Source of the DNA: Ramazzottius varieornatus
Lineage: Eukaryota; Animalia; Tardigrada
Length of the DNA stretch: 64,000 nt
Assembly: GCA_001949185.1 (NCBI GenBank)
Contig: BDGG01000014.1
Location: forward strand, 899,378-963,377
Direction: 5' to 3'
Shown: in pieces, positions 14,530 through 45,870 of the stretch
How the letters are laid out: each line of letters begins with the position of its first letter
Position numbering within the stretch: the stretch's first letter is position 1
Program-made: the position numbers and the translations under genes
The notes under the pieces: generated by a model
Database searches by the model: none
What the model saw: the letters and a program-made list of their open reading frames with translations, nothing else
What the model was told of the DNA's origin: nothing

Positions 14530-14974
14530 TAATGGTGCACGTCTAACCCCAGCACGTTCTGTATGAAACTCATATTCCGAAACGAATTACCCAAGAAACT
14601 TATGATTTCTGTTGTTTACCCTCAAATTTTCTTCCATTGACGTGTAATTTTGTTGTCCTAGCAGTTTTCTTTTTTTCTTGGCGGCCGTTTTGGCGCACTA
14701 TCTTCGGCTGAAACACACAATGCCGAAACACCCTCGTTAGTGGTGCACCTTGTCTCTGACAGCATATCCGTAATGTGTTTCAACTTTTCGATAAGTTAAG
14801 ACTGATATGCAATTACGTACCGAGTTCGGTGCTGTACTGTATGCATCACAGTCCGACTGCAAAAACAGCTGATTCAAAGCGTCGTTCGCAGGTTCTTTTA
14901 GTACGATGCCTGTGAAGCGCAAGTTTGCGTTCTTTCGAAAGCGACAGTACCGTCTGGCTCCTTCCAGCTTTGCC

Positions 14975-22332: not shown

Positions 22333-22751
22333 TGCGATGGAAGGAAAGTTATTCAGGCCAGGCCAAATGAACTTGCGTGTTTATCCCAAAGTCGAAAGCT
22401 GGTCAACTTTCCAAACACTGGCTCTGTGTCATCGCAATACGTCTGCGTACTGCAGAAGCTTCTCTGAAATTTCATCAAAAGATAATTCGTAGGATTGGTT
22501 TAAGCAGTAATTTTCCATTGGATTACTTTTGCTACTGAGGCTTGTTTTCACGCGGTTCTGCGTGGATTAATAAATCTAAGCCTACCCCAGAAACGGGAGT
22601 GTATAATGACAGTATCAGCGTGGCAATCAGGGTCTGCGAAGGTGCATAAGAATTTACGATTTGCTTCCATGTCGACTTTTGAGCATCACTTTGAGTGGCA
22701 GTGCCAGAAAGCTTGGTGACTGGTCCGCTTCGAATACTTAGAAGTTTCTTA

Positions 22752-25390
22752 ATGGCAGGCGCATCTGCTTTTAACATCACATTCGTGGTAATCAGCATGT
22801 ACCAGCAGCAATGCTACCTCCCAGCTTACGAGGTGGCGATTGCGGAAGCCAACCAGATGTACAAGGGCCACCTACACGCAGAGCTGGTCGCCCTGACTCG
22901 CCCAGATCTATGGAATTGCGCTGCGGTATCGAGTAACACAGTTGATCTAAGCACGGCTTTTTATTATCGGAATATGTCATCACGCCAAAATCCTGCCTTC
23001 ATATCGCCAAGTAATTTACGACTTTCTAATCACAGCCATTTTACAGCCTTGTTCGGAATGCTTTACAGTAAACGAAATTTCCCTCGCGTTGCAGACTGTG
23101 TGGACGTGATGTTGGAAATGCATCCGTTGATGACAGGTAACCAACAGTATCAATACTCTGTGTAGTATTTCTTGAGGGAATGATCAATAGCTTTTTCGAC
23201 GGTTTCTATCATGTTTTTGACAGAGTGGAATGTCCCGATCGTTACCATGTGAGAACATCAGACAGACTTGATTTTGGCTAGAGAAGCAGTAGTTCAGAAT
23301 ATTCTTTCACTTTGTCTGTGTTCCCCCAGAAGTGGCAACAGTCGGAAGCTGAGCGACAAAGAGAAATACCCTACTGTCATTTCTATGAGCCCGTCGGACA
23401 ATTTCATGATGGCCATTTTCGTCAAGACTACCCTGGAACGGTTCCGATGGACAAACGTCTTTCTTCTGTGTGACAAAGGTGACCGCGTGGTACCTTTTTA
23501 CATTGCCATGTGTGCAATCTTCAAAAACCTTCTGCGACCTGCCGATGGACAGTTTACTTTATACGACGTCAGTATCAAATCTGTCGACTCTCACCAAGCT
23601 GATTTGGATCTGATGTTGGAAGAAATTGCTTCGCGTTCACGAGGTACCAGTAAATCTAGATTGCCTCGCTGACGTGTCACCCCATACATTTCTTGCAGTT
23701 GTCATCGTGCTAACCAACGCTGTCGTCATGCGACAGCTGATGGTATGTGCCTTGCAGCCATGCCGCTGCGCAATAGCCAATGCGACAAACCGCTGGTGTC
23801 CGTATGTAGTCCCCGTCATGTAGCCATCGACTGGGGACCGGGTCGGTTTATTCGGGCAAATCCGGCTCTGCTTACGTAACGGCTTAATGGCTACAGCGTA
23901 CGAACACGGCTGACTACCAATTTTAGACGTGACGTCAGGCTCAGCATTGCCATTCCCCAGCTGTTTGTCACGTAAAAATTTTCCAGCGGCAAGGCTGGTG
24001 CCTTGGGAATCTCTGACCTATGTTATTACCCGAGAAGTGAGAATTATGGATATATTTCAGATTCAGGCGCAAAGAAGGAACATGACCAATGGCGAATACG
24101 TGAGTCAATACAAACGGGATCATCCGGAGACACAAACTCAAAAATGTACCTTGACGGTATATATTGTCACTCGTCCCTTTACAGGTGTACTTCTTCATGC
24201 AGCCGTTCTTGCTGCTCAACGTCTTCTCGGACTTTTCCTGGAGATTAGACAAAGACGATGACTTAGTAAAAACATCCAAGTCGGCATTAGCAACTCATTA
24301 CGCAGGCCGCAAAATCAATTGTATTTTTGCAGCTTGCCTTAGAGGCCTTCCGAGTCGTCTTCTACATGATCACCGATACGGAGACTCTTGCACAAAACAT
24401 ACCGACGAATACTCGAGATGAAATGGTCAATCGGATGCAAAGCTATTCGCTCTGCAAAGAACGCACGACGGTAGCCTGTACATACAGTGCATAAAATACA
24501 TTCCTTCCGGTGACCACGTGCTATCAGATATGATTGATTAATGCTATAAGACCAGTTGATCACCTGAAGGGTTGCATTTTGTGCAGTGTACTTATACCGT
24601 AACGTTGGCTTCGCGTTTCTTACTTGTCGCTTTCAGGCAACGGTGGAAATGTTTGCGGCATACGAAGCTGTAACTCTTCTGGCAAAAGTATATCAAAGCG
24701 CCACTTTCCTTTCTCTGTATGAACCTCCGAAAAATCAATCCGGTTCCAGGTTGCTCGCGACATCGTCCAAAAGGCTCGTTTAAATAACAAGCAACCTAAC
24801 TTTGTCGGCACCACGTTTGTAAAAGAATTGTCCAATCGTACGCATGATCTGCTAAGGGAGTCCACCAACTTCGACATAAACGCTTGCAAAATACCTGACT
24901 TCCTGATCAAGCAGTTCAATTCCACGTCGAAAAGTTTCGAGGTATAACCGGTCCGAAAGAAAAGATTGTCCGATATCGACATTACTGAACTAAACCTCCA
25001 TTCGTAGAATGTCATTCTCTTCTGCGGCAAGGACAATACAAGCTCATTTTCGTTCAATCGAAACCTGACATGGCCCGGAGGTCACTTGCCGGAGACCAAA
25101 CCCCGCTGCGGTTTTGATGGATCAAATAATGAATGCCGGACGAACAGTACCGCAACCATATTGGTTTCTACAGTTCTAGTCGCAGCAGTACTGCTTATCA
25201 CCTTGCTTGGCGTTTTGGTTTGCTTCCGGTACAAGTTCAGATTTCTGAAGTTTCTCTAAGGCTTCTAAGATCGATGATTCCTTTCAGATGGGATGAAGAA
25301 AGATCGACTGGGAGCCATGCCAGAGGAGTGCTGCTTTCCTGTGATGAATTAGTTTTCGGCTCTCGATATACGTGTCTGCTGTCTTACTAA
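22752..25390 (+). CDS. ANF-receptor (rGC/NPR-type ectodomain) single-TM protein with short tail, multi-exon
   Basis: PAYEVAI..AN, EWNVPIVT, LSDKEKYPT, RFRWTNV, NMTNGEYV, WPGGHLPETKPRCGFDG..C, TM helix, then WDEE...LLSY*. No kinase/cyclase exons before the stop. Confidence 0.8.
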
Positions 25391-26617
25391 GAACTGCTAG
25401 AAACTAGGTGCCAATCTGCTTCCCACTTTTTGCTACCGGGTTAAGGATATGTGTACTCGATTCCATAGTCAGTCGTTTATAGTCTGTCTAAATTACAACT
25501 AATGTTTAGTCCTTGAATCTTGTTGGTTAGAGTTCTCGAAAACCACTGGTAAAAAATCTTTCAAATTTTTTGCGCTGACGCACCGCCGTCTTGTAGACGT
25601 AGCTATCGACATTGTTTCTTGGTTTGATCCGCATTCAGATTTCATCCGTAATTTTTTGTGATATCCACAATTTGGTCGCTTTCTGTCAGTGGTCATCAGT
25701 GCTTAGCAAAAGGAACACAGTTTCGAATACGACGAGGTACTGCGAACTTTGACCTCATTTGGAGCTTACTGCTCATAACAGCTCTTGAGGTTTGTTTCTG
25801 TGGCTGTCTCGAACCGCCCAGATCGCTTCCCAGTTTCATTATGATCGGAGCAAAAAATTTCAATGTGCTTCTGTTACCACAAAGCATGGCGCATCTCTAA
25901 TCTTAAGCTTGACGTACGCTTCGAGTGAATACTCTATGGATGGAGCACATTCCACCCATTCTGTTTACATGCATGAGCTTAGCCAAGACTTGATAGAACT
26001 GCCCGTCCTTAGTAATAATAACCCCTCCTCAGCCTTTTCTCAACGTTTTTCTCTTTTAATAGTATCACTCTTCTCATAACGATCATTCACTCTTCTCCCA
26101 AAAGATGAGGTACCTGGCACTCGCACAGAAGGAGAAGGAGATGCGAAAAACTGTTTTTCGATTTTCTTCATGGTATTCTGTATCATGGTGGTGCTTTAGG
26201 AAGCACAACCGAAGTTGCCATTGTGGTTAGCGCGACTGATGCCCTAATGGGCATAATAAACGAGAAATTTGATTTTCCTGCTGATGTGCAAGAGTGTATT
26301 CATTATGAAATTTCATAGTGCAAATACGGCGACTAAATCGACCTATTTGTGGCGCACTTTTTCAAAATTGAATTTGCAGCGGAAAAACGAAACCTGGTAT
26401 TTGTGTACCGTTTGATAATTTACTGATCTGACTTGAAATTACGCAGACTCAGAACGCAGTGCACAATTCAGAATGGTGATCCGCATGGAATTCGGCGCTG
26501 AATATTTATGGCTGTGGTAGCAGCACGCTGTGTGATCTGATCTTCAACAGCGAAAAAAGGGAGTGAAAGGAAAGATACATTAATACGGAAAGTACCACGA
26601 CGAGAACAAGAACGCTT

Positions 26618-29600
26618 TTACAGATCTTCATCCTCCCTTACAGTAATAATACTATTTTTATCGATGCTCTTGAGTCGATTATCAAGGGCTGCGGTGAATT
26701 TCCCTTTGAATTGAGCTTCGGTGGTAGGCACGTTAGTCAATTTTCCGCCAGCTGTGCTTTTCTGCTGTGCAGCAAATTTATGGACATGTTCTGTGGAAGA
26801 TAAAACACCATGCATGATCAGCCATACGCACATTTTATTCTGTCTTCACGACATCGGACTGCGACCAAGGTGGTTTTGGAGTGCGACGTTGCATTCACAT
26901 TAAGGCCAAAAGCAACAAAGCGAAGCATTTGCTGATGGCTTACCTAAGAAACTTTCGAAGTGTTTCTTTCCGAACATTACAAATCCGACACCTTTCACCA
27001 TCTGCCAGTACCAAAAAATCTTCCGAAGGAACCAGGATGTTGCACATTAGCTTCCGGGCGTATTCGTCCATATCTTTCGCTTTTTCCTGCAGCTCTTGTA
27101 ATTTTCGCTTCTTCACCAAGATGGAGGATTTTCCCAGGCGCTGGTAGATCGCCTTATCGACTTTCTTCTCGTCTTTGAGGAACGACCACTTGATTTCCGG
27201 CACTAAAGACAAGACACAGAATGGTTATTTTAGAAGATTTAAAGCCGAGAAATATGGTTGAACGAAATTCACACAGCTTTAAGCTTCGGCTTCCGCTCTT
27301 TGACTGCTCCCAGTTCCCTTAGCTTCTGCTCGTACTCTGAAAAACAGAAATCTCGGCAAAAAAATTCAAACAGGTCACTTTCTAAGCGGCGTGCGCTGTC
27401 AGCCAACAACACAATAAACTTGCGCCGCTTGGAAAAATTGAATACGACAGAGTGCCTCCCCGAAGTGGTGTTCGCTTTCAGTGACTATACCGGGAAACGT
27501 GCGCCGCTTAGGGAACCAGACCCACTAGTTCAGTTTCCCAATGGCGCACGCTTTCAGCCAATCACACGGTAAATGTGCGCCACCTTGGAAAAATAAATTC
27601 GACAATCTGGTGTCTCAAAGAGGCGCTTACTTGTAGCCTGCAATACTGGAAACGTGCGCCACTTTGGAAAACAAACCCGACCCGATCATCTCAAGGTGGC
27701 GCGTGCTGTCCGGTATATACCTGGGCATAATGCGTCTTTTCAGTACACAAACCCTCTGCAGCATTTTCAACCCGCATCCAATCGTTTTCCTCACTCGAAA
27801 TATTGATAATTTGTGATATGTGTAATGTCTTACCTTTCGCTTTCTTGAGATGATAGACCCGTAAAGCCTTGTATTTCTCGGTCTCATCCATTTCACTGGT
27901 CGCAGTAATCGGAAGAGTAGATTGTTGAATGCCGTCCGGCATCTCTGCAGACCAAAACTAAATTCGTTAATCTCGATAGTATATCAAATTTCATCGTTCA
28001 AGGTTCGGTTCACGCGCCTGGCCTTATTATTGGCCGGGACAAAGTTTTTAGCCACTGGCCGAAAGCGGTAACGCTTTGATTGATTGTCCGTTTAGCCGGA
28101 AGATGCCGCTTTCGGCCAGTGGCCAGAAATTTTGTCCCGGCCAATAATTAGGTCAGGCGCGTGCACCTTTTTCCTCATTGCTAACCGACTTTTCCTGTGG
28201 ATTGTCTATAGGCAACCCGTTCAGACTCTCCGAACGATTTCTGGCTGAAAATTAAGCAGTCAAAATTCAAACCGAAAATGGAGAAGGAAAATATGATACC
28301 ACACTGTCGGACTAAAAGTCAAGTTTACCTGCATCAGGCGCTTTTTTCCTACGACTGTTTCCGTCTGAATCTGTCTCAGAGTCCAAGCCGCGATAAATAT
28401 TCTCCCGCGCTGGAACAAAATCACCGTAAACAGTGCGACTTGAAAAGGCGGAGCAGTGAGATTGAGATTAACCTTTTACTCTGTTCCGATGCAAAGCCAG
28501 GCTAAGCGCTGTATGAACAGAGTTCGAAAAATGCGGCAAGAGCGCCAGAGAAAAAGAGGGTATATAAAACAAAAACAACCAACTTTTTCGTTTTTAAAAT
28601 CTCAAAATCTAAACCAGCAGAAGTACATCTACGTTGTTCTTGCACCACATGAAATTCGAGAAGTTTAGCCCGCTCAGATAGTTCTTAAAACTCAACAAGC
28701 TATTTACATGAAGAGCAGATGGACAAAAAAGGCTATCTTTGAGCAATGCCTCGGCGATGTACGCAAACGAGCCGGAAGTGGACTCAAGAAGCTTGCAGGA
28801 CAGTGGAGCGGTGGAGACAGGCAGCATTATCAGGATTTTGGCTTGACTCCTTGTTTTCAAGTTCCGGCTTGATTCTTGGCTCTTCAGCAGACGATTACCG
28901 TTGGCAAAATTACCAGTCCAAATTCGAAAGACGTTCACCAGGAGGTTTTCACAGCGTCGATGCCAGAGTGGCTTCCATGCGACTTCTTGCAAATGCTGGC
29001 AGTATCGCTTGAAGTCTGGATCGTGCCTGTCTTTGTCTGCTCGGCTCAATCGGATGTTCTGCAGGAACTTCTTTTGAATGGATTCCAGCTGTCTTTGCAG
29101 GCTCTTGATCGTAGGGAACCAGCATGACGAGGCATAGTCGTGGACTGCTCTTACGAGGCTCTTGTAAAGAAGCTGCTTCACTGCTCGATATCGTTGGGGA
29201 AAGAACGCGTTGACAGCGTACAATCTTTGCCTGCACTTGGCCGTCACTTTGTCCACTTGGGCTGTCCATTCGAGCTTGCTTGAGAATGTTATGCCGAGGC
29301 AAACTGCTTCATTCACCAAAGGGATCTTCTTGCCACTAATCACGTAGTATTCGCCTGGAACCTTCACACTCTTGTCCCGCTTGTTCGAGATCCGGAGGTG
29401 CTGCGACTTTTCCGGATTGGTTTCCAGGCCGACTTCTTTACACCATGCTTCTAACCGTTGGAGATCTTGCTGGAGGACAACGCAGTCTTCATGTTTCTTG
29501 ATTGTTCGAGACAGAACAATGTCATCGGCGTACTGCATGACCGTGGAACTGATGCTTTTGGCTAGGCTGTTAACGGCAATGGTGAAGAGAAGTGGGCCAA

Positions 29601-32600
29601 GAATTGAACCCTGCGGCACACCAGATGGGACAGATTGTTCCGACGAGAAATGTCCCTCAACCACGACTCTTTGGCTCCTTCCTTTCAAGTAATCAGACAG
29701 CAAACCTTTCATCTCACCATTCACTCCATGACTTGACAGGCTAGTGACGATGGACGAGTGCGGAAGCTTGTCGAAGGCTTTCGAACAGTCCAAACAAACC
29801 ACGTCTTCTTCGTCTCTTTGTAAGAGGGCTTGCGAGTATTGGTGAGCCATATGGAGCAACTGCATTTCCGTCGACCTCTGCTTTCTGAATCCGTACTGCG
29901 TATCTGAAAGTAGATTATTCTTATCAAGATAGTTAGATGACTCGGCACAATCTTCTCGAACAGCTTGGATAATGGTGGTAGAAGGGAGATGGGACGAAAG
30001 GAAGAGCTGCCCTTCTTTGGTATTGGTACCACTTCGGCCTGCTTCCACGTTGTGGGGAATTCTCTTTTGCTGACGATCAGGTTGAACAGTCTTGACAAGG
30101 GACATACTACGGATGTTCCCGCGATCTTGAGTAGCTGGTTGGTTATCAGGAAGGAACCAGCAGCTTTAGCAGAGTCTAGGCGTTGGATTTGTTTCAAGAT
30201 CACCGAGGTAGTGAAGTGAAGTGGCGGGCAGTGGGGTGTCTCTGGGGGCTCAACGCGTATCGGCTCACCATGGCTAACGGTTGATGGCAGGCAGTGGCGT
30301 GGACTGGCAGAGTACACTTTGGAGAATTCTTGGCTGATAAACTCGGCTTTGTCTTGCGGATCTACGATGTACTTCTCATCATGACCAGGTATCGGGATAG
30401 GCGGGATAGATGCAGCGGAGGTGTTCTTCTTAACATGTTTCCAGACTGCTCGGGGATTTCTGCGGGATGCTTTTGCGATGCCATAAAGACGACGATGCTT
30501 GTCAGACTGGATGATTCTTCTCTTGCTAACTTCGAGCTCCTTCCAACTTGAATAATCTGCTTGATCCCTTGTTCTTCTCCATTTCTTAAAGGCACTTCCA
30601 CATCTTCGCAAGCTATCAATAGCTCTTTCGGAGAGGGAAGGACGATGAAGACGCTTGGCTCCGACAGATTTCAACTGAAAAGCACTCTTCGCAGCAGCGA
30701 TGAATTTATCCTGAAAAACAGTAACGGCAACATCGACATTGCACATCAAATCAAACACCTGGCCCCAATCAATCGATGATAGTGCAGTCTTGAAAACATT
30801 GATATTCTCCCCGTCAATTTTCCACACCAGCTTTGGCTTCGTCTTGAAGTTCGGAGTCATAAGCATCAGCTTGGTTTCGATGGCTTGATGGTCACATGTA
30901 GCTGAAGGTGGGTTAACGATCCTGGTGTTGCGAACGAAGCCCAGTTGGGTAACGAAGAGCTGGTCGAGTGATGATTCGCTTCGTCCCCGCTTTCGAGTGG
31001 TGCCTTTCACTTTCTGCCACAGTTTAAACTCGTTCTTCAACTGGATCAAATCCCTGTCCCTTTCCGACTTTCCACTTGTATCGCCATCCCAGACTATGGA
31101 CAATTAAAGTCACCAACTAGGAGAATATTCCGCCGTAAGAATGGTGGAAAGAGCTCCATCGACGTGCGAAGCTTCGAGAAGACTTGGGCATCATAAGCTG
31201 GCGCATAAACTACTCCGATCAGGACGTTCAAACGCAAGCAAATCAGCTTGATCCACATCACCTCCACACCGTCTACTTCCAGGCTCTCCATTCTGACAGC
31301 TTGTAGCCCCTTCTTGATGGCGATGGCTACTCCTCCTCCCGCTTGCTTCTTGCATCCTTCTCGATCCTTCCGGAAGAGATTGTAATGTTCAGGGTCAGCA
31401 ATCAAACAATCAGGGGTAGAGTTGTCTGCCCAAGCTTCGACCAACGCGACGATATCCGCCTTCTTCTCGCCCATCCATCTCTTGGTCTCCTCGCTTTTGC
31501 TTCTTGATGCCATTGACGTTTCCGTACAAGAACGTCAGCTTCTTCCCGATTTCACCTGAAAACTCAAGAGGAGGCATCTCGCAGTCGATAATGTTCCCGT
31601 TGTGACAGGCATATGGAGTTTGCTTTGGATTGGTGTTCAGTTCGATGTTGATTCTCGTTTTGAGCCGTCAGACGCACAGACGGAATTCGTCAAGCGAATA
31701 CTGGCAGACGCGTCAGAAGCGAAATACTTGGTGGCGGGTGATGTGGCGATATCGTATGATGAGAAAACGAAAGGTCCGATACTGCAGGTGGTGAAGGATC
31801 CGATGTTCACGCCGGATGGTTGGAAAGCTTTAGGTCGGGTCTCCAGTCATCGGCAACACGCCAGGCAGTTGCTGAAGGCGGCGGGAAGGATGAGAGAGTG
31901 TAGTCCGAAGATGGTGGTGTACCACCAACGTGGTGATCCTGACGAGCATGAGGAGGAAGAATCAGAGGACGAAGGAAATGACTTGCTGATGGCCATGGCT
32001 CTAAATGTGCATTAGGAGAGTAATATGATATATCTAAATATGAAGATTGACGAAGTCGATCGGTATCATTCGAAGGTATTATTGAGTAAGAACTGACCTG
32101 AAACTATTATTTGATATTTGAAAATTTCACTTACCCTCTGGTCCGCGTGCCCAGTCATTTTCACTCCACTCTTGTTCATTGACATAGTCTTGGAATTCCG
32201 CAATGTCGGACTTGCCATCTTCACTGTCCACATTATATGTCTTACGCGCGTCTCTGTCCGCACCAGATGATGGCCTCGAAGAGAGGCTGCTTTCACCTGA
32301 CGATTCCAAGGTTGACCGTGTTCTCTTCGTGCCCTTCCGCAAAGGCATCTTCAGCCTTCTGCGGCCGACTATCTTTGTAATTGGTCCAGGTCCTTCGTCT
32401 TTATCGCTTCCTTCGTCTTCTCCACCACCCTTATGATCCTGTCGATTACCGCGAATCCCACTGCTGAACAACCGTTGATTATTCAACTCATTGCGCTTGT
32501 TCCGTTCAGATTCCGTCCGATCGAGGTTGGTCATCCGCTGACTTCGCTGTGCTGGCTTATTCTTTTTCTCTTTCTGAAATAAAACAAAAGCATGGATAAA

Positions 32601-33134
32601 GAGAATATTCGGGAAAGTTTAAATTGAAAACATCTATTGAACCAATAAGTGCAAATACAAAATGAGAATTCGGATCCGCTCACCTCCGATTGGCGAATTC
32701 CTTCCAGTGTATCGAACAGGGCATTGACTTTCATCTCGTCAGAATCGACCTCGATTATGATGGCTTTGGAAATCTGATAGTTCGCGTCCCATTTAGCTCG
32801 GACATGGATTCCCTTCTCCTGCTCCGTCTTTCCAACCAACTCATCGCTGTAGTTGTGTCTTTCAGTCATGAACTCTTCGGTTAGTTCCTGTGGAGTTCTG
32901 ACCTGGTAGTATCCATCTTCGTACTTCAGCAGGGTGTGTCCCAAGAACCGTAAGCACAAAGTTAGAGGTAGAAAAATATCACAGCGGAATCGAAAGATCA
33001 AATAACTCACTGCCGGCCTCCCGAGTGTTGTTGAGGATAGCTTTGAACAGTGCAGAGTTCCCCTTGTCTCTTTCCGGATCAGAAGTCGCTATGTTTCTCT
33101 TGGCCCTCTTCGCTCTCTGGCTCTGTTTGCCCAT
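26618..33134 (-). CDS. Transposon accessory gene with C-terminal BEN-like domain, multi-exon, interrupted by a LINE; may be defective
   Basis: ATG 33134; a series of phase-1 exons is compatible across the LINE. C-terminus ILVKKRKLQEL..KDMDEYARKLMCNIL...LRKFLEHVHK...FTAALDNRLKS resembles the BEN pattern. One junction (about 27.2 kb) could not be phased. Confidence 0.55.
27380..27710. repeat. About 78-bp period array of inverted GTGCGCCRCTTGGAAAAA motifs
   Basis: Forward motif at about 27420, 27499, 27575 and 27654; reverse at about 27381, 27460, 27535, 27614 and 27691. Confidence 0.75.
28007..28167. mobile_element. Palindromic MITE in an intron of the BEN-like gene
   Basis: cacgcgcctggccttattattggccgggacaaa...tttgtcccggccaataattaggtcaggcgcgtg. 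Confidence 0.8.
28609..32020 (-). mobile_element. Non-LTR retrotransposon (CR1/L2-like), APE-RT ORF with frameshifts
   Basis: YGNVNG, DIVALVE, GGGVAI, VYAP and GDFN (APE); FRPISLLPPLSKLFEK, QYGFRKQRST, LDCSKAFD, SGVPQGSILGPLLF and YADD (RT). Split into three ORFs; ends not precisely defined. Confidence 0.92.
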
Positions 33135-33336
33135 CTTGAAAGGAACGAAAGACTAGGGAAAGAGTCAATCTAAGAATGTCCGAGACACAAACTCCATTAA
33201 AAGTAAGCTTATTAAGAGCAACTGACGAGCCTCAACCGTTAGCCAGCGCACAAAGAGTACCGGGGCAGCGTTCTCGGTGCTAAGCTTGTATATGCGTTAC
33301 TTTCAGTGACGCAGTACCGGACAATTGTTCAGTCGA

Positions 33337-33693
33337 AATGGTTACGAGGTAAAACTAGCGGAGTTGTCCAATGTAAAGTGCATGGTGGAGTTGACCACCC
33401 TCGATCTCATCATTCAGTGATCAGATTTCGGTGCGTTTGGGTTTATCCGATAGGAAAAGATGTCCGCTGTTTTTTTCAAACATAGTAGGCACGGAAGAAG
33501 ATCGGATTTATTGATAGACATCCGTTGGGAAGAGGGACGATCAACACAATGTTAAAAAGCCAGTTTTCGAAAAATCAGCTGATTTTAATCAATCAAGTAA
33601 CGATACAGACGCGTGTGTGAACTTTCAGGGTGGACAACTCCACCATGCGATTTTACATTGGACAACTCCGCTAGTTTTACCTCATAATCATTT
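33337..33693. repeat. About 65-bp inverted repeats in the divergent promoter of the BEN-like gene and transposase
   Basis: 33337-33401 (gaggtaaaactagcggagttgtccaatgtaaa..catggtggagttg.ccaccct) is the reverse complement of 33627-33693. Confidence 0.85.
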
Positions 33694-33823
33694 TAGATTG
33701 ATGACCAAACACTCTGAGGACATTTCTGATCAACATCTAATTTTGATTCAAATATGATTGATTGCGGAATGTTCCAGAAAGTTTTATCGGAATTATTATT
33801 GTGGTTCCTTCTCTGCATAAATT

Positions 33824-36601
33824 ATGGAACGGCAGAGACTTTCTAGATTTTATATCCAGTTAAACTTAGCGAAGAAGTGGGCGGCATCGAATGAGCAAGA
33901 CGGAGCGAGGCAGGGAGAAGCCAGAAGAGTCAGTCGGCCTCTACCTGTCTCTGAGGATATTAATTTATCACCTGTCGTCCGGTCCACCACACCTGAGCCG
34001 GAATATGTTGACAATGACAACGACATTTACAGCGATAAAGATGACAAGTCGTCCGACGACATCATCGACGAGATGGAATCAGAAAGCGACGATGCGGATT
34101 CAGACATAGGTAAGATGTATATCTGTATGCGTGGTAGCACTTAAATCAACATGGGCAGTTATTGATTGATCAGGCTGTCTTAACAGAGCCAATTCTGGTC
34201 GAACGTTTAGGGAGTAGTGCTTCGCAATCAGCTAAACAAGACGGATGGACAATTCCCGATATCTGCGCGTTGATGCTATACACCGTAAAGAGCAACGGAG
34301 TGACCAACTCAACTCTGGACAAGTTCCTAAAGATAGTAGCGCTGGTAATAAATGGAGAGAGGAACATGGAAGATGGACTGAGTGGAAAGAAGTTCCCGGC
34401 TAATGTCCGGTCTGTGAAGAGGATGTTAGAAATATCCCACGAAGACCAGTGGAAGGTGGTTCACATAATGTCCCACAAAACGGATTGTACGGAAGAAAGG
34501 CCAAGACGTTCCTACAACCGAGATATGTGGTTACACACTACGTGACCACGAGAATCCAGCACGAAAGACCTACATCTGTGACCTGTGCCAAGCTGAATGG
34601 GACCACAAAATTATGGAGAAGGACGGGAACCATTTCGTAGTCGCGTCTCTACACTGGATACTGTCCAATGTATTGGACAGATACGGTGGGAAAATCCGCA
34701 CGTCTGCTATAGCTGATGGTGTAACTAACGTGATGTACGACGTCAGGGACGGTGACAGGTGGAAGAATATGAGGCTGATAGGAACCGACCTGGTAATTTC
34801 TGTCCACGCTGATTCCGCAGCCATCAGCAAGAGTACTCAACGCAAGATGTACCTAATCTTCATCCACCTTCTCAACCTGCCGATTGGTCTGCGCCGTAAC
34901 ATGTGGCCATTGTTCTTGGTGTGGGTGGGGGAAGCGTTACCGAAGGATCGAGAAGCATTCCTGATGGAGCTGTCTCTGCAGTTGAACGCTCTTCAAAAGG
35001 GATCGGCTGGCTTTCAGCCTGTGAGTTGGAAAGACATGGAAGGACGGATGAAGGAGTCATCAACTTACTTGCATTCCGTGTGGTCGGACACGCCTGAAAG
35101 GGCTGCAATTAATGGCCAATTCTCCCACGCCGCAGCACAAGAATGCATCTACTGCACTCAGGTAATCCCTTGCCATACCGATTTCGGCCAAGTTCTAAGA
35201 CCTACTCTCTATTTATAGACTGCTGAATGTATAGATCACGTGATGTGCTACAAGTACAAGAAGAATCCTGTGCTGAAATCACACGATGAGGTAGTAACGT
35301 TATCCACTAAATGGCACACTCTAACCCTCTCCGAGCAGAAGAAGATACACGAAGACCGAAGCGTCGGAGGTTTCAAGCGCCCTTCCCTCGTACATCATTG
35401 GAGGAATTTTAACATGGTCGAAGGTTTCGCACAGGACGTAATGCATCAGATGGACGAAGGCCTGTCCAAGTTCTTCCTGAAAGCCATTGTTGAAGGGACA
35501 GATGCTATGAAGTTGACGAAAAACCAGATAAATGAGATTGACCGTAGATGGCTGTCCATCACAGTTCCCGGTCACGACAACAGGAAACTGCGTTCCATCC
35601 GCACATACAAGCAGTGGAAAGCACATGAGCTGCGCTTTTTTCTGCAACATGGCGATCCGTTTGTAACAAGAGGGATCGTCCCCAAAGCGTTCCATAACAT
35701 CTTGCGTTTGGCGAGCTCCATTGCTTGGTCTTGCACGCAGGACTCAGTCACCCGCGATGACGTCACGAAGATCGAAAGATTAAGCTCTGATTTTTTGCAG
35801 AATTTCGAAAAGTATTTCGGCGTTGGCTTGATGAAATATTCCGTCCACGTGGTCCAGCATATACCCATGGCGCTCAATTTATTCGGCCCTCTGCATCTGG
35901 TGTCCTGTTATGGGCCCGAAAGCGAAATCGGAAAGATCTCCCGCAGAATCTGCGGAACAAATAAAACCACAAAACAGATAATGAACTCCTTCCTTACCCT
36001 CACTGAATGCAGCAGCTACCTGAATGACGCCATTGCGCCAGATTCGAACAAGGACAAGCTGGTAATACGAACCGCTCTTCACGTCCTGAATTTACCAATG
36101 CCCGTGTTTTCTGCGAAAGTCTTGGAAGGAGTTTGTCGTCTGTTGGGCAGACCACAGCTACTGAGGAACGAAAATGAGCTGAAGTTGCTTCGAAGGTACC
36201 CTGACCTTCAGGATGCCAGCCTGCAGAGCTTCTACAGTTTCAAGAGAGCGCGAGTGGAGAATGGCATCTACATTCGTACGTGTGCGCATAGTGAAAAGTC
36301 AGTGCGAAACGAGATCATTATTATCGACCAAGACCACGATACTTGGAAAGTTCTGGACATTATCGCGTTCGTGAGAGCGGAAGATCTCCGGGTGGAACGG
36401 ACCTTTGTCTATGGAGAGAAGATGAAGAAAGTAGATGAGAATCGAATCGAAGTCGACCATATCTACTCTGTACAAGCTTCCGATAGGAATCGGATGTTTC
36501 TTACATCGTCAGTGCGAAAACAGCTGGTCATACTGCGGGACTTTGACTATGGTCGGCGGATTGTCATTAGCCCTCCCTCGAACATTTATTTTGTGACGTG
36601 A
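33824..36601 (+). mobile_element. CACTA/EnSpm (CMC) transposase, intron-containing, frameshifted near 34.5-34.6 kb
   Basis: DVRDG..W, HADS..ISKS, LLNLPIGLR, SDTPERA..G..H..CIYC, DVMH, WKAHELRFF and VHVVQHI...FGPL..SCYGPES are Tnp2/DUF4218-type motifs. Confidence 0.85.
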
Positions 36602-37313
36602 ATTTGGGTGAGCTGTATTGAGTTTAGATGAGTCCTCAGAGTGGACCGACATTTTGCTTGACCGGTGCCTTCTGTGTATTGCAGGTAACGGCCAACTCCC
36701 GTCGCAGTCCGATGCTTGCACCGACGCAGTCCGATGTTCAGTGCACAGCAAACTCGTTCTACGGCCATGACTGAAATGTTCTTCGTACACATTGTGCAGT
36801 TGTGTCCAGTATAAAATACGAAAGTTGTATTTGCGATTTTGTGTTTTCAGTTTTATAGTAATATGTACTTTGACTAGGAATTGCTTGCATATTCGGGCAA
36901 AATTGTGGCGCGTGACGTTCACATGTTGTATTATACGCGGACGGGTGCGTGGTAAGTTTTAGTTGTACACGTCATAGACCGCACATGCTTCAAACCCCAC
37001 TGTGTGAGTAACGACACGCAGCCAAGCTCGGCTCAGCGAGGAGACACTCCGAAACAATGAAGAAGCGAAAAAAACTGCAGAATATATGGGACACACGTGC
37101 GCACCTTCCCAGAAAAGTTCCCCCTGCCTCTGTTCAAGCGCGGATTGCACTGCGTTCTTGCTAGGCCTATCACAGTCAGATGTTCAATTTCTGTGCAGCT
37201 CAGTACGAGTGTAGCGTAGTTCGAAATAGTTGCCTTGGCTAAGTTTCGAATTTTGAAATCTATCTTATCCCTCATTTGTGTGTAGAATAATCACTGACAT
37301 CATCTTTTGGACA

Positions 37314-38141
37314 ATGGGCGCCAATACGTTTGTTCAAAAGGCGAATATGAGAGTTTCAGTCCCGCAAAATTCGAAGCGAAAATATACCGTTGAACGCATT
37401 ATTGAACATCACGGAGAAAAGGGTCTTGGTACTCGTATTTTTTATCACGTAAAGTGGTATGGATACCCGGAATTCAAAAATACTTGGGAGCCTCAGGAAT
37501 CGCTGGTAGATAGCGGGGACGCAATTGCTGAATACTGGGAGATAGTTAGGCGTCTGAAAAAATATGACAGCCGTCCTAAACGTGGCGAAACCTACAAGTC
37601 CAAGAAGGAGGCATCCAAGGAATATCTGCGGTTAAAGGACAGGCTGAAGGATGTCTTATAAGAAGACCCAGGTTAGTGAAATTTTATTGAAATAGTCGGC
37701 CTATATGTTGAACGTCGGCATATCGCTTCACCCGGATCGCCATCTCAAGTGGCTCACTTTTCCGCTGTTACTGCCCGAAAGTATGCGCCATTTCGGAAAA
37801 CAGTATGGACGAGTTCATTTGCCGACGTCCTATATATCTTTGTGTCAGAAGAGCATTCTTACTTGTGAGGATAGAATTTCTGTTGTCGTCTTGCTATATT
37901 GGTATATCATTATTTTAGGACCAGAGACCCTTGCCTCGCTCGTGCTCAACAAAGTTGCATCCGTTTTCTTTGCCAGGGATCCCAGCCAGCTGACCGAGAA
38001 GGACAAGGGGTCGCTTTCACGGCGGATCGGGTTAGCGACAAAGGAAGTGTTTCCACACAAGAAAGACGTCCACGGAACGTGCCAACTGACTCGAAATGGT
38101 CCCCGACACTATGTCGGACTTTCTTTATTGTAGTTACCTGA
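37314..38141 (+). CDS. Chromodomain protein (in-frame stop at 37659-37661; possible second exon from about 37918)
   Basis: YTVERIIEH...YHVKWYGYPEFKNTWEPQESL..AIAEYW is a canonical chromodomain with its aromatic cage. Confidence 0.8.
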
Positions 38142-38749
38142 ATTATTTCGTCCAGAATGTCTTGCAACGGGCTCCAGAGCGTTGTATTGCTGTTCGAAAA
38201 GTCTGCCGGGAAAGAAGACCCGGACCGGCACTGCTAAGTTCCGTTAATACCATACGCCCCTTTTATTGCTTACGCGACATCACTGGTACTGCTGAAATTG
38301 CTTGCTTACGCTGCTTGTTTTTGCGGCAGCGAAACTTGTTCGTTGTTTTTGTCTGCTGCAAATCTCGTTCCTTTTTTCTGTTAATCGAAAATTTCCGATA
38401 CATATCACCAAACCTTGAATTTATCCGAAATGCTGAAATTTCAGTATATCCTTCATAGGAAGATCCCCAACAAAATAACCTTCTTTGGATTTTTCTATAG
38501 TTCCGGCAAATTAAGTTCGTTAGGGTATATGGTCAGTCGCACGCTGGCGAGCGGAAGCTTTTTTTCCCCACCCTCCCATCCCACGTTTACGGTATTGGTT
38601 GCTGGTTGCGTGGTCGCGCATGGTTTTCAGATGGTTCGTTGTACTCTATGCTGCCCACACTGTGTACTTTAGCTCTTTCAAATTTTGTACTGGATTCTGC
38701 TTGTAGTATTTTGTCTGTCATCTTGTCTGTAGTTTTCAGTCTTTAATAA

Positions 38750-41215
38750 AGAAAGGGGGTTGTTGCGATGACCGAAGAGCGCTTTGCCTGGTCGAGTTGG
38801 TCGGCAAGTTTGCGACAACTGCAGGGAAGGACTTCGGGGTCACGGCAGTCACCTTTCCCTGAGCCCCAACTACACGTCTGTTGTTCGATGGTAAAGCTAG
38901 GGTACGCCAACTTTACGTTATCCGCGTCGATGGTGGGAATGCTGTTTCTCGAATATCTCGGGTAGCTGCTTTTCTAGCGCTTCGACAAAAGGCAACTACA
39001 GTGTGAAGGGAATACAGATGAAAGCTAACTCTCATCAGAAGTAGAACCGCGGTGGAGAAACCAGCAAAGTTTTCAATATCCGGCTGGTTATTCGGTAGCG
39101 CCAGATAAATTTTCTTCTTCAGTCTTTACAGCGGTCCGGTTTGACCTGCTTCTGCCCAAACTCTTCAATAGACACCCCTCTTTCATCCACAGCTAAAGTC
39201 AAACTCAATCGTGCAATGGGGAAGAAACTACATACTTTCTTCTCGAACGCGGAGCTCAATAAAAACTCCCCTTCATATTCCTTACAAGATTTTGTTCAAC
39301 GAATGACTTCCCAGCCTACGCTCTAATTTTGCAGTATGGCCATAAGTTTCTTTCACTTTATTGCAAAAATTTGCCGAGATCGAACGACCAAAGAATTTCT
39401 GGTGAACGCAGCTTTAAAACTTGTTGAACCCTCAGCTGCTGTGTAATGTTTCACAAAATCTAATCTACCCGGGCCTCGGGAGGAAGAAATTTTTCGTCGA
39501 CAAAGCTGAGTTATCGAGTCACTTATTTCCTGGGGGTTTTTTGAACAGCACCTGTTTTGTCGAAATTGAGGCGACAGTCGATAACCGGTTTGTTCTGCAC
39601 GTTTTGACATGGGTTATGGATTTTCGAGTGCGCTGGTTTCGAGAAAATAACAATCTTAACGAAGAAGGCACAATTTTCATGATTATGTTACAAAATAAAG
39701 CGAATCCAGCAATGCAACGTGAAGCTGAGATACAGCTCCCTTATGTTCAAACGAAAGACAGGCCTCACACTATTTTCATTAAAAAGAAAGAATCAAAGTA
39801 TTCCGTCTGTCTAGAGATAGAAGTTCTTAAATTAAGCACACGTAGTCACTTTTTTAGACAGTTCTTTAAAGGTTTTCGCCAGACCTGTACATTAATGTTT
39901 AAATTAATTTCAAATGTTTTCAAATGTTTAAATTACTCTAACCAAATTATCCCCCGCGATTTTCCGAAATGTTCGAAAACGGTATTGCAGATCTCGAAAT
40001 AAATTGCGGATCTGCAAAATATTGCGAGCCCAGCCGGCCAACCTCAATACGCTTTTGTGTGGCTCTACTTCTAAGGTAATCCCTTCCCAGTGCGGATACG
40101 ACTGCACAACTCATTCCTCTCGAACGTCAGTATGGTTGCATACTCGACGGCGCGGCGAATTCTATCAAATTCAACGGGACTAGCAGAGTGCGAAGCAATG
40201 CGTGGAAAATCGGAAGTTCTTCTAGACCTCCTCCCGTTTATTTCCCGGATTTTTTCTGATTTCCTGGTGTTGTTGGTCATGTCATATGTCATGTGCCAGA
40301 AGGCGTGACCTGCCATGTTGTATGATGTGACCTGACATGATATGTTAGCGGTTTCAATACACTGTGGCTTGATTTTTGATTGATCGGCAAATTGGGAAGC
40401 TTCACAATTTGCCGACCTGCTCTTTTCATCCATCTCATACATTTTTTCAAATCTGAAGTCATTCTTCTCTTTTTCTTGTGAAAGTAGAGAACAATAAGCT
40501 TGCCCTGTCTGAAGAATCAAACGTAATCCTCGGCAGGTTGGCCAATTGATCAAAAGCTTTTCTGGAGTTGGTTGTAAACGGCTGACACAATGGAAACCTT
40601 GGCTCATTCATGGCGGCTTACTCAGATCATATCTCCTTCTTTTCGGACTTTGAGTTTCTACCAATGTTTACAGACGCGCAGCTCGACAACAAAAGTGAAT
40701 GGTCTATTCATCAATATCCTCCTTCAAAAAATTTGCGTCACAAACCCAACTTAATTCGCTACCAATTATGGCGCCCAATATTCTACCTCATTCCTCTCTG
40801 TTTTTCAATATCTGGCACTTGAAAAAAATTTCGCTTCACAGTCGGTCTTTTTTCTGCCATACCCGCACTACTAACATATGCGATGCTGGCTTCTAAGTTT
40901 GTCTAACGATCCAAGTTTTCCTATAATTTGCGAATTCAGCGAATTTTGACAGTCTTGTGAATTCATCCACTTTGACGAACCTAATCTTGTCGGTACAACA
41001 TCATCTTTCAGACGTCGAAACTTATCCGAACCAAACTCCTGCTCCGAAAGATGAGCATCACAAATCCAAGCGGGACCACGACCAACATGTTTCAATCCCA
41101 AACTCGAAACACCACTTCCTCCTCACATCCTCGTTTACCGGAACTGAATATAAAGTTCTACCCTTTCTATGTTTTTCCCATAGTAATATCCACATTCAAT
41201 GCATTTTTTGTGCAA
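38750..41215 (-). pseudogene. THAP-domain gene remnant (THAP at about 40975-41215; downstream extent uncertain)
   Basis: CIEC / LYSVPVNEDVRRKW / ICDAH / RRLKDDVVPT, joined over two frameshifts. Confidence 0.65.
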
Positions 41216-42084
41216 TTACTCGAACTCGGCAAATTGGCAATCTTCCCAAATCGCCGACCACTAATATTAACTGTTAAATCTCACCGAGAAACAAGTCCCC
41301 AAAATTGCCGAAAAACAACCCCCTGAAAACCGCACGAACACGCTGCTTTCCCCGATAAAAATCTCCTCAAAAGAAATTCCATTCATCTTACTCGACCCCG
41401 AACTTAGCCAAGCCTGTACTGAGAGCTGTAATTCAACCTTATCTCTCTCCTTCTAGTCTTTTGTATCTACCACTCAACACTGCGCCACCTAGCACTTAGC
41501 ACAGACCCACCTCTCACAGAGCACACTACTTCCATTGGCTCTAGCTAAACCATTCCTCATCATACACTCAACACCACCTCGACATACTGCCCTTCGTCGT
41601 GCGAAAACGTTCAAACGGCATACCACGCACACCAAGACAAAAAAGCATAGCCTCCCTCAAAATATTCTACTCCACATATTTTCAGAGCATGAGTCCATCT
41701 CCCACTCAATTAGTCGAGACCCTTGTGAGATCTCTAACATGACACAGCAGCCCGGAATTGGTAGAAGTTATCTAGGCTGAGAGCCACTATAACTTAGCAG
41801 TCGCCCTACTCTCTGCTAATCCCTGATATACTTAAACGGTGTCTTGTTCTACGACACAGCAAGCTGCGAGCGAGCCGAAGGCGAGCGAACAGCTTGTGGA
41901 TTCGCAATGTAACAGCCGGACAGTGAAATATTTTACATGGTCAGGCTCGCTGTCACTAATTAGGATCGTTGGATGGGACAAGGTATGATTTAAGTATTAC
42001 GCCTTCAATTTCTTCCACACAAAGAACCCATCAACCTTTCAAAATAATCTCCCGTCATGTTCTACTGAGCTACCCTCCTGAAAT

Positions 42085-42355
42085 TACAGTCCTACCTGTG
42101 AGATGTGACAGTTCGAACGCCCGATTTCAGTTCCGGACGGTACGTGTGTACACGGGGCTGCTCGCCATGCTGTTACCGATCAGCTGATGAGACCGATCAG
42201 CTGATCGGACACGCGCTTAATTACTTGATCAAGTCAAGTGATAACCGGACGTCGATCAGCTGATCGTGCTGCGCAGTGCATGGCCAGCAGTCTCGTGCAG
42301 AATTGCTGTCCAGTGGCAGAAGGAGCAATTGTCACATCTCACAGGTAGGACTGTA
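42085..42355. mobile_element. MITE with TA TSD (Tc1/pogo-like)
   Basis: TA-CAGTCCTACCTGTGAGATGTGACA...TGTCACATCTCACAGGTAGGACTG-TA. Confidence 0.9.
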
Positions 42356-42499
42356 ACCAAATTATTTGTGTGTTTCATTTTGCACAGTATCATCAAAACC
42401 TGTCATTGTTGCTGCAAATATTTATGGTAGTTGCTAATTAAATCTACCGCTTTAAACGGAACCGCAAATCGCACGGCGCTCCTAATATCCGAACATTTT

Positions 42500-43140: not shown

Positions 43141-43336
43141 GGCGGACCCAGAGCCTGGCCGAGCTAGGCCGCGCCCAGGACTTTCCGACGTCACGAGGAG
43201 TTTGTTCAGATCGCTTCGCTGGTCGTAATGATATACCGACACACGCAATCAAAACTGTCAATCAACTAAGATTGTTATTAGAGTGACGTCGAAAAGTCCA
43301 GGGCGCAGCCTGGCTCGGCCAGGCTCTGGGCGGACC
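43141..43336. mobile_element. hAT-type MITE
   Basis: 8-bp TSD GGCGGACC (43141-43148 and 43329-43336); TIR CAGAGCCTGGCCGAGC. Confidence 0.9.
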
Positions 43337-44636: not shown

Positions 44637-45870
44637 GTCAATGCTAACCTTTCGCGTTTGGATCAACTAATCAAATCCTGCCGTTTCATGACTTTGTATA
44701 AAATGGGTGCGACCATTACCACCGCCTCGAACCGCTAAAAATCTACGGTCAACGCATTCGCCAGAAATTATAACTTCTGATTCGGGCGGTATATTTCTGC
44801 TTTTAAGCATGTCACAGGTAGCCTGGTTATTTTTCTATTTATTTTAGCTGTTAACAGCACAGAAAAAGCAGACAAAATCAAGAAAACGATTTTTAAAAAA
44901 TGCCTAAAAATCTGCGAAAGTCGTCTTTTTCGAGGGTCTTCCTTTGTGACAAAAATTCGTCATACGGCCGTGTCTCGTACAACTTGCCAAATTTTGTTTT
45001 TGATTATGATAGGCCATTGTTTTTGCTATCTACGGATGCTATGTTCGACGCGAAAAAGTTTCGATGGAGAGAGCTCTGATTTTTAGAAGGTGGTAGCGAT
45101 GTGGCCCGAACGGGCTGTAGTTCGTATTCAACTGTCAAGTCGTTATTTTGCGAGTTGTTGACACAGTAATGCATCAATCTTTTGCCACATTCTTTATTGA
45201 GTCGGTTCAAGAGCCGCTTTCTGTTCTCTGCGAACAGGATTCGTAAATGTGGAAAGATTCTTCTAAAGTTCTTCTAAATCTGCCCGCAAACAGAAAAGCG
45301 GTTCAGAATAACTAGACAAAGCAAGCGTCCACTATCGTTTGGCACACAACCAGNNNNNNNNNNNNNNNNNNNNNNNNNNNNNNNNNNNNNNNNNNNNNNN
45401 NNNGCGCACAGCGTTGGCTTTCAGCACCGTGTCTACGTCGTTGAACTGTTGCATTGAGGTTGGCGTATACAATTTCAGACGTGGAAGCGAATCCCGGAGA
45501 TAGATTGGAGCGGACCAGTGCTGTGCCCGTTGGCCGAGAGCAGTACCGTCGCCTACGCTGGGATCTCCCTCGAAACCTAGTTGGCATCGCCAGAAAGTTT
45601 TTGTACACGACTCGCGCAGTCTGATAACAGCAGGCTCCGGTGGCCTTCCCATGTCGTAAACTAACAGCACTATCTTGCTCAAACGGGAGTCCTCTCGGTT
45701 TGGAGCAGTTTTAAGTATGACGGCGACCAGTCCCACACCTTCGGTTAAAGCAAGCATCTTACCTCAGTATCACTTCCTAGTGTTTTATCGATTATTCGAG
45801 ACCGACTCGATCATGGCAACAAAACTAATGAAATCGTCTCGGTGTCTGGTGTCTTCGATAGGTCTGCTTT
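44637..45870. repeat. Arm B of the inverted duplication, containing an N gap
   Basis: Reverse complement of 20760-22332; gap at about 45354-45403. Confidence 0.9.

What the first reader, a model, noticed from the sequence alone, without database searches (positions are those of the whole stretch)
26618..41215. CACTA/EnSpm-type locus with a chromatin-reader set: BEN-like gene, chromodomain gene and THAP gene
Seen: a Tnp2-type transposase with a divergent multi-exon BEN-like gene, a downstream chromodomain ORF and a convergent THAP remnant, all inside a chemoreceptor cluster and mostly decayed. Known: CACTA elements carry a second DNA-binding ORF, and chromodomains target chromovirus integration. 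Inference: this may be one large (more than 11 kb without the LINE) cargo-bearing DNA transposon that reads histone marks for targeting or anti-silencing.
Basis: partly seen in the sequence, partly recalled or inferred. Interest (0 to 1): 0.8.

Follow-up and report, generated by a model that had tools for sequence, protein, structure and literature searches.

The report
Tardigrade transposon carrying a chromodomain gene
This is a broken copy of a tardigrade cut-and-paste transposon that likely travels with two extra genes, a chromodomain protein predicted to read histone marks and a likely BEN-type DNA binder, while the neighbouring THAP fragment likely belongs to a different repeat.

Summary
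Mostly confirmed, with corrections. The window holds an EnSpm/CMC-type transposase (33824-36601, +), a divergent spliced BEN-like gene (33134-26406, -) with a LINE in an intron, and a downstream chromodomain gene (37314-38133, +). Other Ramazzottius loci pair these genes: RvY_00158 (transposase+chromodomain in one model), RvY_02322/02325 (BEN-like/transposase), RvY_11272/11276 (BEN-like/chromodomain). These copies are 93-98% alike, so they probably move as one unit. Candidate ends 26204 and 39005 read CAC..GTG with a 3-bp duplication (1 of 60 shuffles as good; right end uncertain by about 100 bp), giving about 9.3 kb without the LINE, not over 11 kb. The THAP remnant lies 2 kb outside, single-copy, between its own repeats. 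All three genes are broken here, yet transcribed. The chromodomain is secure and keeps its aromatic cage; BEN rests on weak fold hints only. Histone-mark reading for targeting or anti-silencing is untested. This scan had noted EnSpm+BEN pairs in other animals and chromodomain partners of Transib-like transposases; I found no EnSpm with a separate chromodomain gene in print. New variant of a known kind.

The parts
26201..26236 (+). Candidate left end: 3-bp AAG duplication (26201-26203) and imperfect terminal inverted repeat starting CAC at 26204
   Evidence: 10-nt match to the 5' end of the H. exemplaris CMC-EnSpm consensus seen; near copies cover from about 26140-26180 onward
26406..33134 (-). 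BEN-like accessory gene (ORF2), about 9 exons: N-terminal beta-rich module, acidic linker, coiled coil, C-terminal BEN-like domain. Broken: intron 1 has no AG acceptor, LINE in intron 3, frameshift near 27000
   Evidence: joints, poly(A) at 26406; tblastn of homologues; fold hints
27388..27671 (.). Four 79-bp-spaced copies of a palindromic ~42-nt motif inside an ORF2 intron; the motif is dispersed genome-wide and is not a terminus
   Evidence: (25 contigs with unrelated flanks)
28007..28167 (.). Small hairpin repeat (62-nt arms), MITE-like, in an ORF2 intron
28488..31981 (-). Nested LINE (endonuclease + reverse transcriptase), three indels against the family's other copies; ends approximate, no target duplication found
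33336..33693 (.). Multi-copy MITE with 66-nt inverted ends between the two divergent genes
33824..36601 (+). EnSpm/CMC-type DDE transposase, two introns (second, 35162-35218, matches RvY_16926), one frameshift near 34469
37314..38133 (+). Chromodomain gene: exon 1 with the chromodomain (about 37383-37541), premature stop at 37659-37661, exon 2 (about 37918-38133) of no known family
38975..39008 (+). Candidate right end: imperfect inverted repeat ending GTG at 39005, followed by AAG; an alternative end near 38905-38920 is not excluded
   Evidence: caveat from contigs running across 38970-39018
39009..39430 (.). Flanking host repeat (about 105-nt units; matches library entry ramVar1-365, unclassified); a related unit forms the left flank 26100-26203
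40345..41260 (-). Separate THAP-like remnant (about 40993-41221, two frameshifts) between two copies of a palindromic repeat (ramVar1-810, unclassified); outside the element

Best explanation
The stretch 26204 to about 39005 is a dead copy of an EnSpm/CMC-type cut-and-paste transposon that likely moves as a three-gene unit: a DDE transposase, a divergent likely BEN-type DNA-binding helper, and a chromodomain protein predicted to bind methylated histone lysines. In intact copies the transposase would cut at the CAC..GTG ends and leave a 3-bp duplication (inferred from the family and the candidate ends). The BEN-like protein would bind sites in the element as plant TnpA does (inferred by analogy). 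The chromodomain protein most likely tethers the complex to H3K9- or H3K27-methylated, repeat-rich chromatin and so biases insertion (my estimate about 35%; anti-silencing about 25%; mere passenger about 30%). Later a LINE and two MITEs inserted, and each gene took a disabling mutation. The THAP remnant is a separate neighbour.
For: Pairings elsewhere in the same genome: RvY_00158 is one gene model with transposase (70% identical) followed by this chromodomain (72%); RvY_02322 (BEN-like) is 3 tags from RvY_02325 (transposase) on one 9,333,084-bp scaffold; RvY_11272 (BEN-like) is 4 tags from RvY_11276 (chromodomain) on one 2,480,670-bp scaffold. These copies are 93-98% identical to each other although on different scaffolds or far apart. 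DNA contigs show near copies (85-94%) along 26140-27350, introns and 3' UTR included. Candidate ends are the best of 191 pairs with a duplication (27 against 16.5; 1 of 60 shuffles) and fit the EnSpm rule CAC..GTG with 3-bp duplication (PMC12730594). CMCT motifs present. Cage residues Y24, W48, Y51 align with those of HP1.
Against: No second copy was read as DNA; linkage rests on locus tags, and gene order is known only for RvY_00158. No locus outside the window shows all three genes. Only 2 of 7 named BEN-like homologues and 2 of 6 named other transposases had a detected partner; none in Hypsibius or Paramacrobiotus. The inverted repeat is imperfect (about 24 of 33 positions); 8 of 60 shuffles reach its score if no duplication is demanded, and repeat contigs cross the right end. 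BEN: no Pfam or PDB sequence hit, fold scores Z 3.5-4.3 or E about 1, Foldseek PDB none, and the Atlas pointed to RRM below its bar.
Confidence: 0.68

Rival explanations
1. One reading: one element of more than 14 kb that also carries the THAP gene.
For: The THAP remnant is only about 2 kb from the candidate right end and converges on it; the right end is not certain.
Against: Single-copy depth at 40436-41763 in the DNA run; its own flanking repeats matching another library family; a different multi-copy repeat lies between; no terminal repeat pairs the left end with 39500-41600 above chance.
Confidence: 0.07
2. A two-gene EnSpm element (transposase + BEN-like) that captured a host chromodomain gene once; the gene is a passenger without a role in transposition.
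For: The chromodomain partner was found only in Ramazzottius and unnamed ENA assemblies (2 hits among 5 candidates); it is HP1-like; EnSpm+BEN pairs without it were noted in other genomes (unchecked notes).
Against: The gene, its second exon and the cage are kept across lineages whose proteins differ by about 30-37%, about as diverged as the transposases, which suggests long retention under selection.
Confidence: 0.3
3. Segmental duplications of a region holding host BEN-like and chromodomain genes next to a transposase, not a transposon unit.
For: The locus is transcribed and spliced; linkage elsewhere is by tags only; the window sits among duplicated receptor genes with a 99% inverted duplication around it.
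Against: Near-copy coverage starts at the candidate left end and does not extend into 26000-26091; all three genes here are broken; candidate ends with target duplication exist.
Confidence: 0.08

Closest known systems
EnSpm (CACTA) superfamily, CMC/CMCT clade; animal TRC elements such as SmTRC1 (PMC1636069, abstract and section 6 read; PMC12730594, passages read)
   Same: DDE transposase with C(2)C and H(3-4)H motifs; candidate CAC..GTG ends and 3-bp duplication; spliced genes; size near 9 kb
   Different: Two separate accessory genes (BEN-like and chromodomain); TRC ends reported there start CCC with 2-bp duplications; no Pfam Transposase_21 hit on this protein itself
Hypsibius exemplaris CMC-EnSpm consensus hypDuj5-3932 (PMC11071193, supplement rows read)
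   Same: Tardigrade CMC-EnSpm, 8609 bp, 20-bp inverted repeat; shares a 10-nt motif with the candidate left end
   Different: Gene content not described there and only its first 400 letters were visible; no CMC label was found among the Ramazzottius entries
Plant Spm TnpD + TnpA (bioRxiv 10.64898/2026.08.24.746577, passages and section 6 read)
   Same: Transposase plus a separately encoded DNA-binding regulator
   Different: TnpA uses tandem HTH motifs and is reported as restricted to flowering plants; here the helper is BEN-like and a chromodomain gene is added
Chromoviruses and other chromodomain Gypsy elements (PMC6839031, PMC12477816, passages read; Gao et al. 2008 seen only as cited)
   Same: A mobile element encoding a chromodomain
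   Different: There it is fused to a retrotransposon integrase; here it is a stand-alone gene in a DNA transposon, and targeting is untested

Membership tests
EnSpm/CMC (CMCT) DNA transposon | DDE transposase with C(2)C and H(3-4)H motifs between second D and E | tested here: met
   HADS, SDTPER, CIYC, DVMH, HVVQH, YGPE in P0001, matched in P0009 and P0016; definition from PMC12730594
EnSpm/CMC (CMCT) DNA transposon | Tnp2-family profile match (Transposase_21, DUF4218) | tested here: inconclusive
   DUF4218 E=1e-4 to 2e-4, below cut-off; Transposase_21 only on distant hit P0017, E=2.2e-6, below cut-off
EnSpm/CMC (CMCT) DNA transposon | 5'-CAC..GTG-3' inverted ends with 3-bp target duplication | tested here: inconclusive
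   Candidate 26204/39005 with AAG; 1 of 60 shuffles; imperfect repeat, right end crossed by repeat contigs; first scans missed it
EnSpm/CMC (CMCT) DNA transposon | Dispersed copies | tested here: met
   Homologous gene models on at least four other scaffolds and near-copy contigs
EnSpm versus Mirage, Chapaev, Plavaka, ESTA | Placement in a transposase tree with reference elements | not testable with these tools
   No reference transposases could be fetched; tree holds only the hits
BEN domain | Profile match to BEN | tested here: inconclusive
   0 of 10 members hit Pfam BEN at E<=1; profile against PDB sequences none
BEN domain | BEN fold (beta-hairpin then five helices) | tested here: inconclusive
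   BANP Z 4.3, rmsd 4.5, 80 aligned; NACC1 Z 3.9; Bsg25A Z 3.8 among the top 7 rows; BANP Z 3.5 the only one of 50 rows over residues 65-145; bracovirus BEN ranks 1 and 5 at E 1.0 and 2.7; models pLDDT 53 and 67
Chromodomain (HP1/Polycomb type) | Profile match above cut-off | tested here: met
   PF00385 46.9 bits against 25.1; HP1 best PDB match E=2.8e-9
Chromodomain (HP1/Polycomb type) | Three-residue aromatic cage | tested here: met
   Y24, W48, Y51 align with the HP1 cage positions (cage identity recalled); kept in P0035 and P0036
Chromodomain (HP1/Polycomb type) | Binding to methylated histone tails | not testable with these tools
   needs peptide binding assay
THAP domain | C2CH zinc motif, conserved W and AVPT box; profile match | tested here: inconclusive
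   CIEC, RKWC, CDAH, VVPT in order over two frames; Pfam E=0.14 on the C-terminal half only

The most novel reading that the evidence does not exclude
A tardigrade EnSpm lineage has evolved a three-part toolkit, transposase, BEN DNA reader and stand-alone HP1-like histone reader, and uses the chromodomain protein to steer a cut-and-paste transposon into methylated chromatin or shield it there, a DNA-transposon counterpart of chromovirus targeting.
Probability: 0.3. Interest if true: 0.72.

Novelty: new variant of a known kind. Interest (0 to 1): 0.48.

Why it matters
Chromodomain-guided insertion is known from retrotransposons. A cut-and-paste element that keeps a separate chromodomain gene with an intact methyl-lysine cage gives a direct test of whether DNA transposons also choose chromatin by reading histone marks. 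It adds to hints that animal EnSpm elements use BEN-type proteins where plants use TnpA. It also warns that some annotated tardigrade chromodomain genes (RvY_00158, RvY_11276) are probably transposon cargo, not host regulators.

Tried and rejected
No whole genome was held, so other copies could not be read as DNA. Scans of metagenome and viral contigs with the transposase alignment: 0 of 17 and 0 of 52 pattern matches confirmed. The inverted pair 27540/37749 as termini: rejected, the motif is genome-wide with unrelated flanks and lies inside ORF2. First terminus scans found nothing above shuffles, partly because one window stopped at 38990. Joints 26119-26169 to 38913-38970 as a clean empty site: unresolved, both flanks hold similar ~105-nt units. 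TTAA at 39414 as a target duplication: rejected, the library repeat runs past it. The stop at 35216 as decay: rejected, it lies in an intron. Atlas search on the BEN-like part gave RRM leads under 0.9; on the N-terminal module only unnamed clusters at 0.91, so a Tudor-like reading is untested. Foldseek against PDB: no match at E<=0.001 for either model. Exon 2 of the chromodomain gene: no Pfam, PHROG or PDB match. No RNA holder was on record as RNA; no RNA contigs lay on the THAP remnant in 3 of 3 non-source runs, which is not evidence of silence. Motif look-ups for the element ends in the tardigrade repeat library: 0 of 4 (cells cut at 400 letters). No LINE target duplication found. No complex prediction was run.
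Full report
Source and layout. No genome was held. The C-terminal transposase ORF is 100% identical to a protein named RvY_16926 of Ramazzottius varieornatus, so the window is tardigrade DNA. The flanks hold receptor-guanylate-cyclase-like genes (ANF_receptor in 2 of 19 ORFs scanned; paralogy 22700-25400 to 58000-61000) and multi-pass membrane ORFs without a Pfam hit, so 'chemoreceptor cluster' is only partly shown.

Transposase. The gene runs from ATG 33824 to TGA 36601. Its relatives were 17 proteins among 2946 candidates, mostly tardigrade (RvY_00158 70%, RvY_02325 75%, Hypsibius BV898_11302 37%, three Paramacrobiotus loci), then a distant animal-type protein and one with Transposase_21. 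The motifs that define the CMCT clade in PMC12730594 (passages read), DDE with C(2)C and H(3-4)H, are present. The stop at 35216 lies in a 57-nt GT..AG intron. A real frameshift lies near 34469: RvY_00158 and RvY_02325 read through in one frame, and DNA and RNA contigs carry the window's version without gaps.

Divergent gene. Contigs of runs X4 and X5 (one study; RNA by guess, but spliced and polyadenylated where DNA run X1 is not) show 6 CT..AC joints between 26790 and 32684 and a poly(A) end at 26406. A search of 1.84 billion representatives with one exon gave 14 hits. Of 10 looked up, 5 were named, plus one cluster member: RvY_06495, 02322, 11272, 02396, 08458 and Hypsibius BV898_18637; a profile search added RvY_01775 (4 hits among 7308 candidates). 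Full-length homologues map to exons from ATG 33134 onward. This copy is broken three ways: no AG acceptor for intron 1 (an RNA contig retains it), a LINE (about 28488-31981; RVT_1 E=1.3e-30) in an intron that an RNA contig reads through unspliced, and a frameshift near 27000. BEN identity is not proven. Pfam gave no BEN hit for 10 of 10 members, Foldseek on PDB none, the Atlas RRM leads under its bar. But the predicted beta-hairpin plus helices drew three BEN structures among the top 7 of 48,161 chains (BANP Z 4.3, rmsd 4.5, 80 aligned; NACC1 3.9; Bsg25A 3.8), BANP was the only one of 50 rows covering the domain in the second model, and bracovirus BEN proteins ranked 1 and 5 in the viral library (E 1.0, 2.7). 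All are below significance; I put BEN at about 70%.

Chromodomain gene. Pfam Chromo 46.9 bits against a cut-off of 25.1; best solved match HP1, with Y24, W48 and Y51 on the cage positions (the cage is recalled knowledge). The search gave 2 hits among 5 candidates at E<=1e-12: RvY_11276-2 (71%) and an ENA protein (62%). Isoform RvY_11276-1 has a 70-residue second exon that matches 37906-38130 at 68% and fits no family. The window has a premature TAA at 37659 before it, leaving the chromodomain whole.

Do the genes travel together? Three other loci each pair two of them. RvY_00158 is a single model of transposase followed by this chromodomain, probably a prediction that joins two genes, but it fixes order and strand. 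RvY_02322 and RvY_02325 are 3 tags apart on one scaffold; RvY_11272 and RvY_11276 are 4 tags apart on another. With about 17,000 or more tags, each such adjacency has a rough chance under 1%. These copies form one young subfamily: transposases 93-97%, chromodomains 93%, BEN-like parts 95-98% identical (tree). Against this: 5 of 7 named BEN-like homologues and 4 of 6 named other transposases had no detected partner, no locus showed all three, and nothing links them in Hypsibius or Paramacrobiotus; the searches were length-limited and see only called genes.

Ends. DNA contigs show single-copy depth at 26000-26091, near copies (85-94%) along 26140-27350, and one unique contig 33654-38821. First scans for inverted ends found nothing. 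The curated tardigrade repeat library (PMC11071193; passages and supplement rows read, cells cut at 400 letters) lists one CMC-EnSpm, hypDuj5-3932, 8609 bp with 20-bp ends, whose start shares 10 letters with 26210-26219. That led to the pair 26204/39005: CAC..GTG, about 24 of 33 positions complementary, AAG on both sides. It was second of 2273 CA/CC-ended pairs and first of 191 with a duplication (27 against 16.5); 1 of 60 shuffles matched it with a duplication, 8 of 60 without. The pair was picked by eye before the test. Repeat contigs cross 38970-39018, both flanks hold related ~105-nt units, and a weaker end-like motif lies near 38905-38920. I rate the exact ends at about 55%, the right end within 38790-39010 at about 80%. 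Size 12,802 bp, about 9.3 kb without the LINE.

THAP. The pieces CIEC, RKWC, CDAH and VVPT lie in order over two frames at 41203-40999; Pfam THAP E=0.14. It sits 2 kb beyond the candidate end, past a repeat matching ramVar1-365, between two palindromic motifs (40381-40415, 41226-41260), the left one matching ramVar1-810, at single-copy depth. I could not look for THAP beside the other copies, so its exclusion is inferred.

Mechanism. Shown: gene content, decay, transcription and splicing, pairwise linkage. Inferred: cut-and-paste movement as one unit; the BEN-like protein as a TnpA-like DNA-binding helper (TnpA role from bioRxiv 10.64898/2026.08.24.746577, passages and section 6 read); the chromodomain protein as methyl-lysine reader biasing insertion, by analogy with chromoviruses (PMC6839031, PMC12477816, passages read). 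This copy cannot move by itself.

Novelty. Animal CACTA-like elements (PMC1636069, abstract and section 6) and tardigrade CMC elements are known, as are giant EnSpm with accessory genes in red algae (as cited in PMC12477816). Searches (listings seen; four of the listed papers opened) showed no EnSpm with a BEN or separate chromodomain gene; some searches were for context. Repbase and most subscription journals were not searchable, and the unseen remainder of library consensus sequences may bear on this. Unchecked notes of this scan report EnSpm+BEN pairs in six other windows and chromodomain partners of Transib-like and KDZ transposases; none on this genome or this protein. Verdict: new variant of a known kind, interest 0.48.

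Noticed in passing
window 34512-34573: RNA contigs of X4 and X5 splice out a 62-nt intron that reads GT..AG on the minus strand, inside the transposase coding region, so an antisense transcript overlaps the transposase gene while sense-type joints occur in the same contig.
   Followed up: partly
window 26140-27200 versus 33824-38133: The copy looks mosaic: its left end is 85-94% identical to other copies in DNA (BEN exon 89-91% in protein) while its transposase and chromodomain are only about 70-75% identical to the same subfamily.
   Followed up: partly
window 20066-22332 and 44637-46559: An inverted duplication (717 nt at 99%, 451 nt at 100%) frames the whole region; one arm adjoins an assembly gap, so part may be an assembly artefact.
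   Followed up: no
window 27542-27583, also 5831, 37749-37790, 52576: A ~42-nt imperfect palindrome is dispersed genome-wide with unrelated flanks (25 contigs) and forms 79-nt tandem arrays; could be a protein-binding site or tiny mobile element.
   Followed up: partly
window 28329-31660: An RNA contig reads through this exact frameshifted LINE copy with no differences, while the DNA run's main LINE contig lacks its three indels, so intact relatives probably exist.
   Followed up: no
window 42084-42356 and 43147-43330: Two more MITE-like elements with 30- and 48-nt inverted ends; the first is very abundant in the DNA run.
   Followed up: no
window 36608-36684: An intron right after the transposase stop is spliced in RNA, so the transposase transcript continues towards the chromodomain gene; a shared pre-mRNA is possible.
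   Followed up: no
window 14873-16363: Intronless UDP-glycosyltransferase ORF of 497 codons in an intron-rich neighbourhood (UDPGT E=2.7e-25); origin not examined.
   Followed up: no
window 39418-40002: A 194-codon stop-free frame with no Pfam family between the repeat and the THAP remnant.
   Followed up: no
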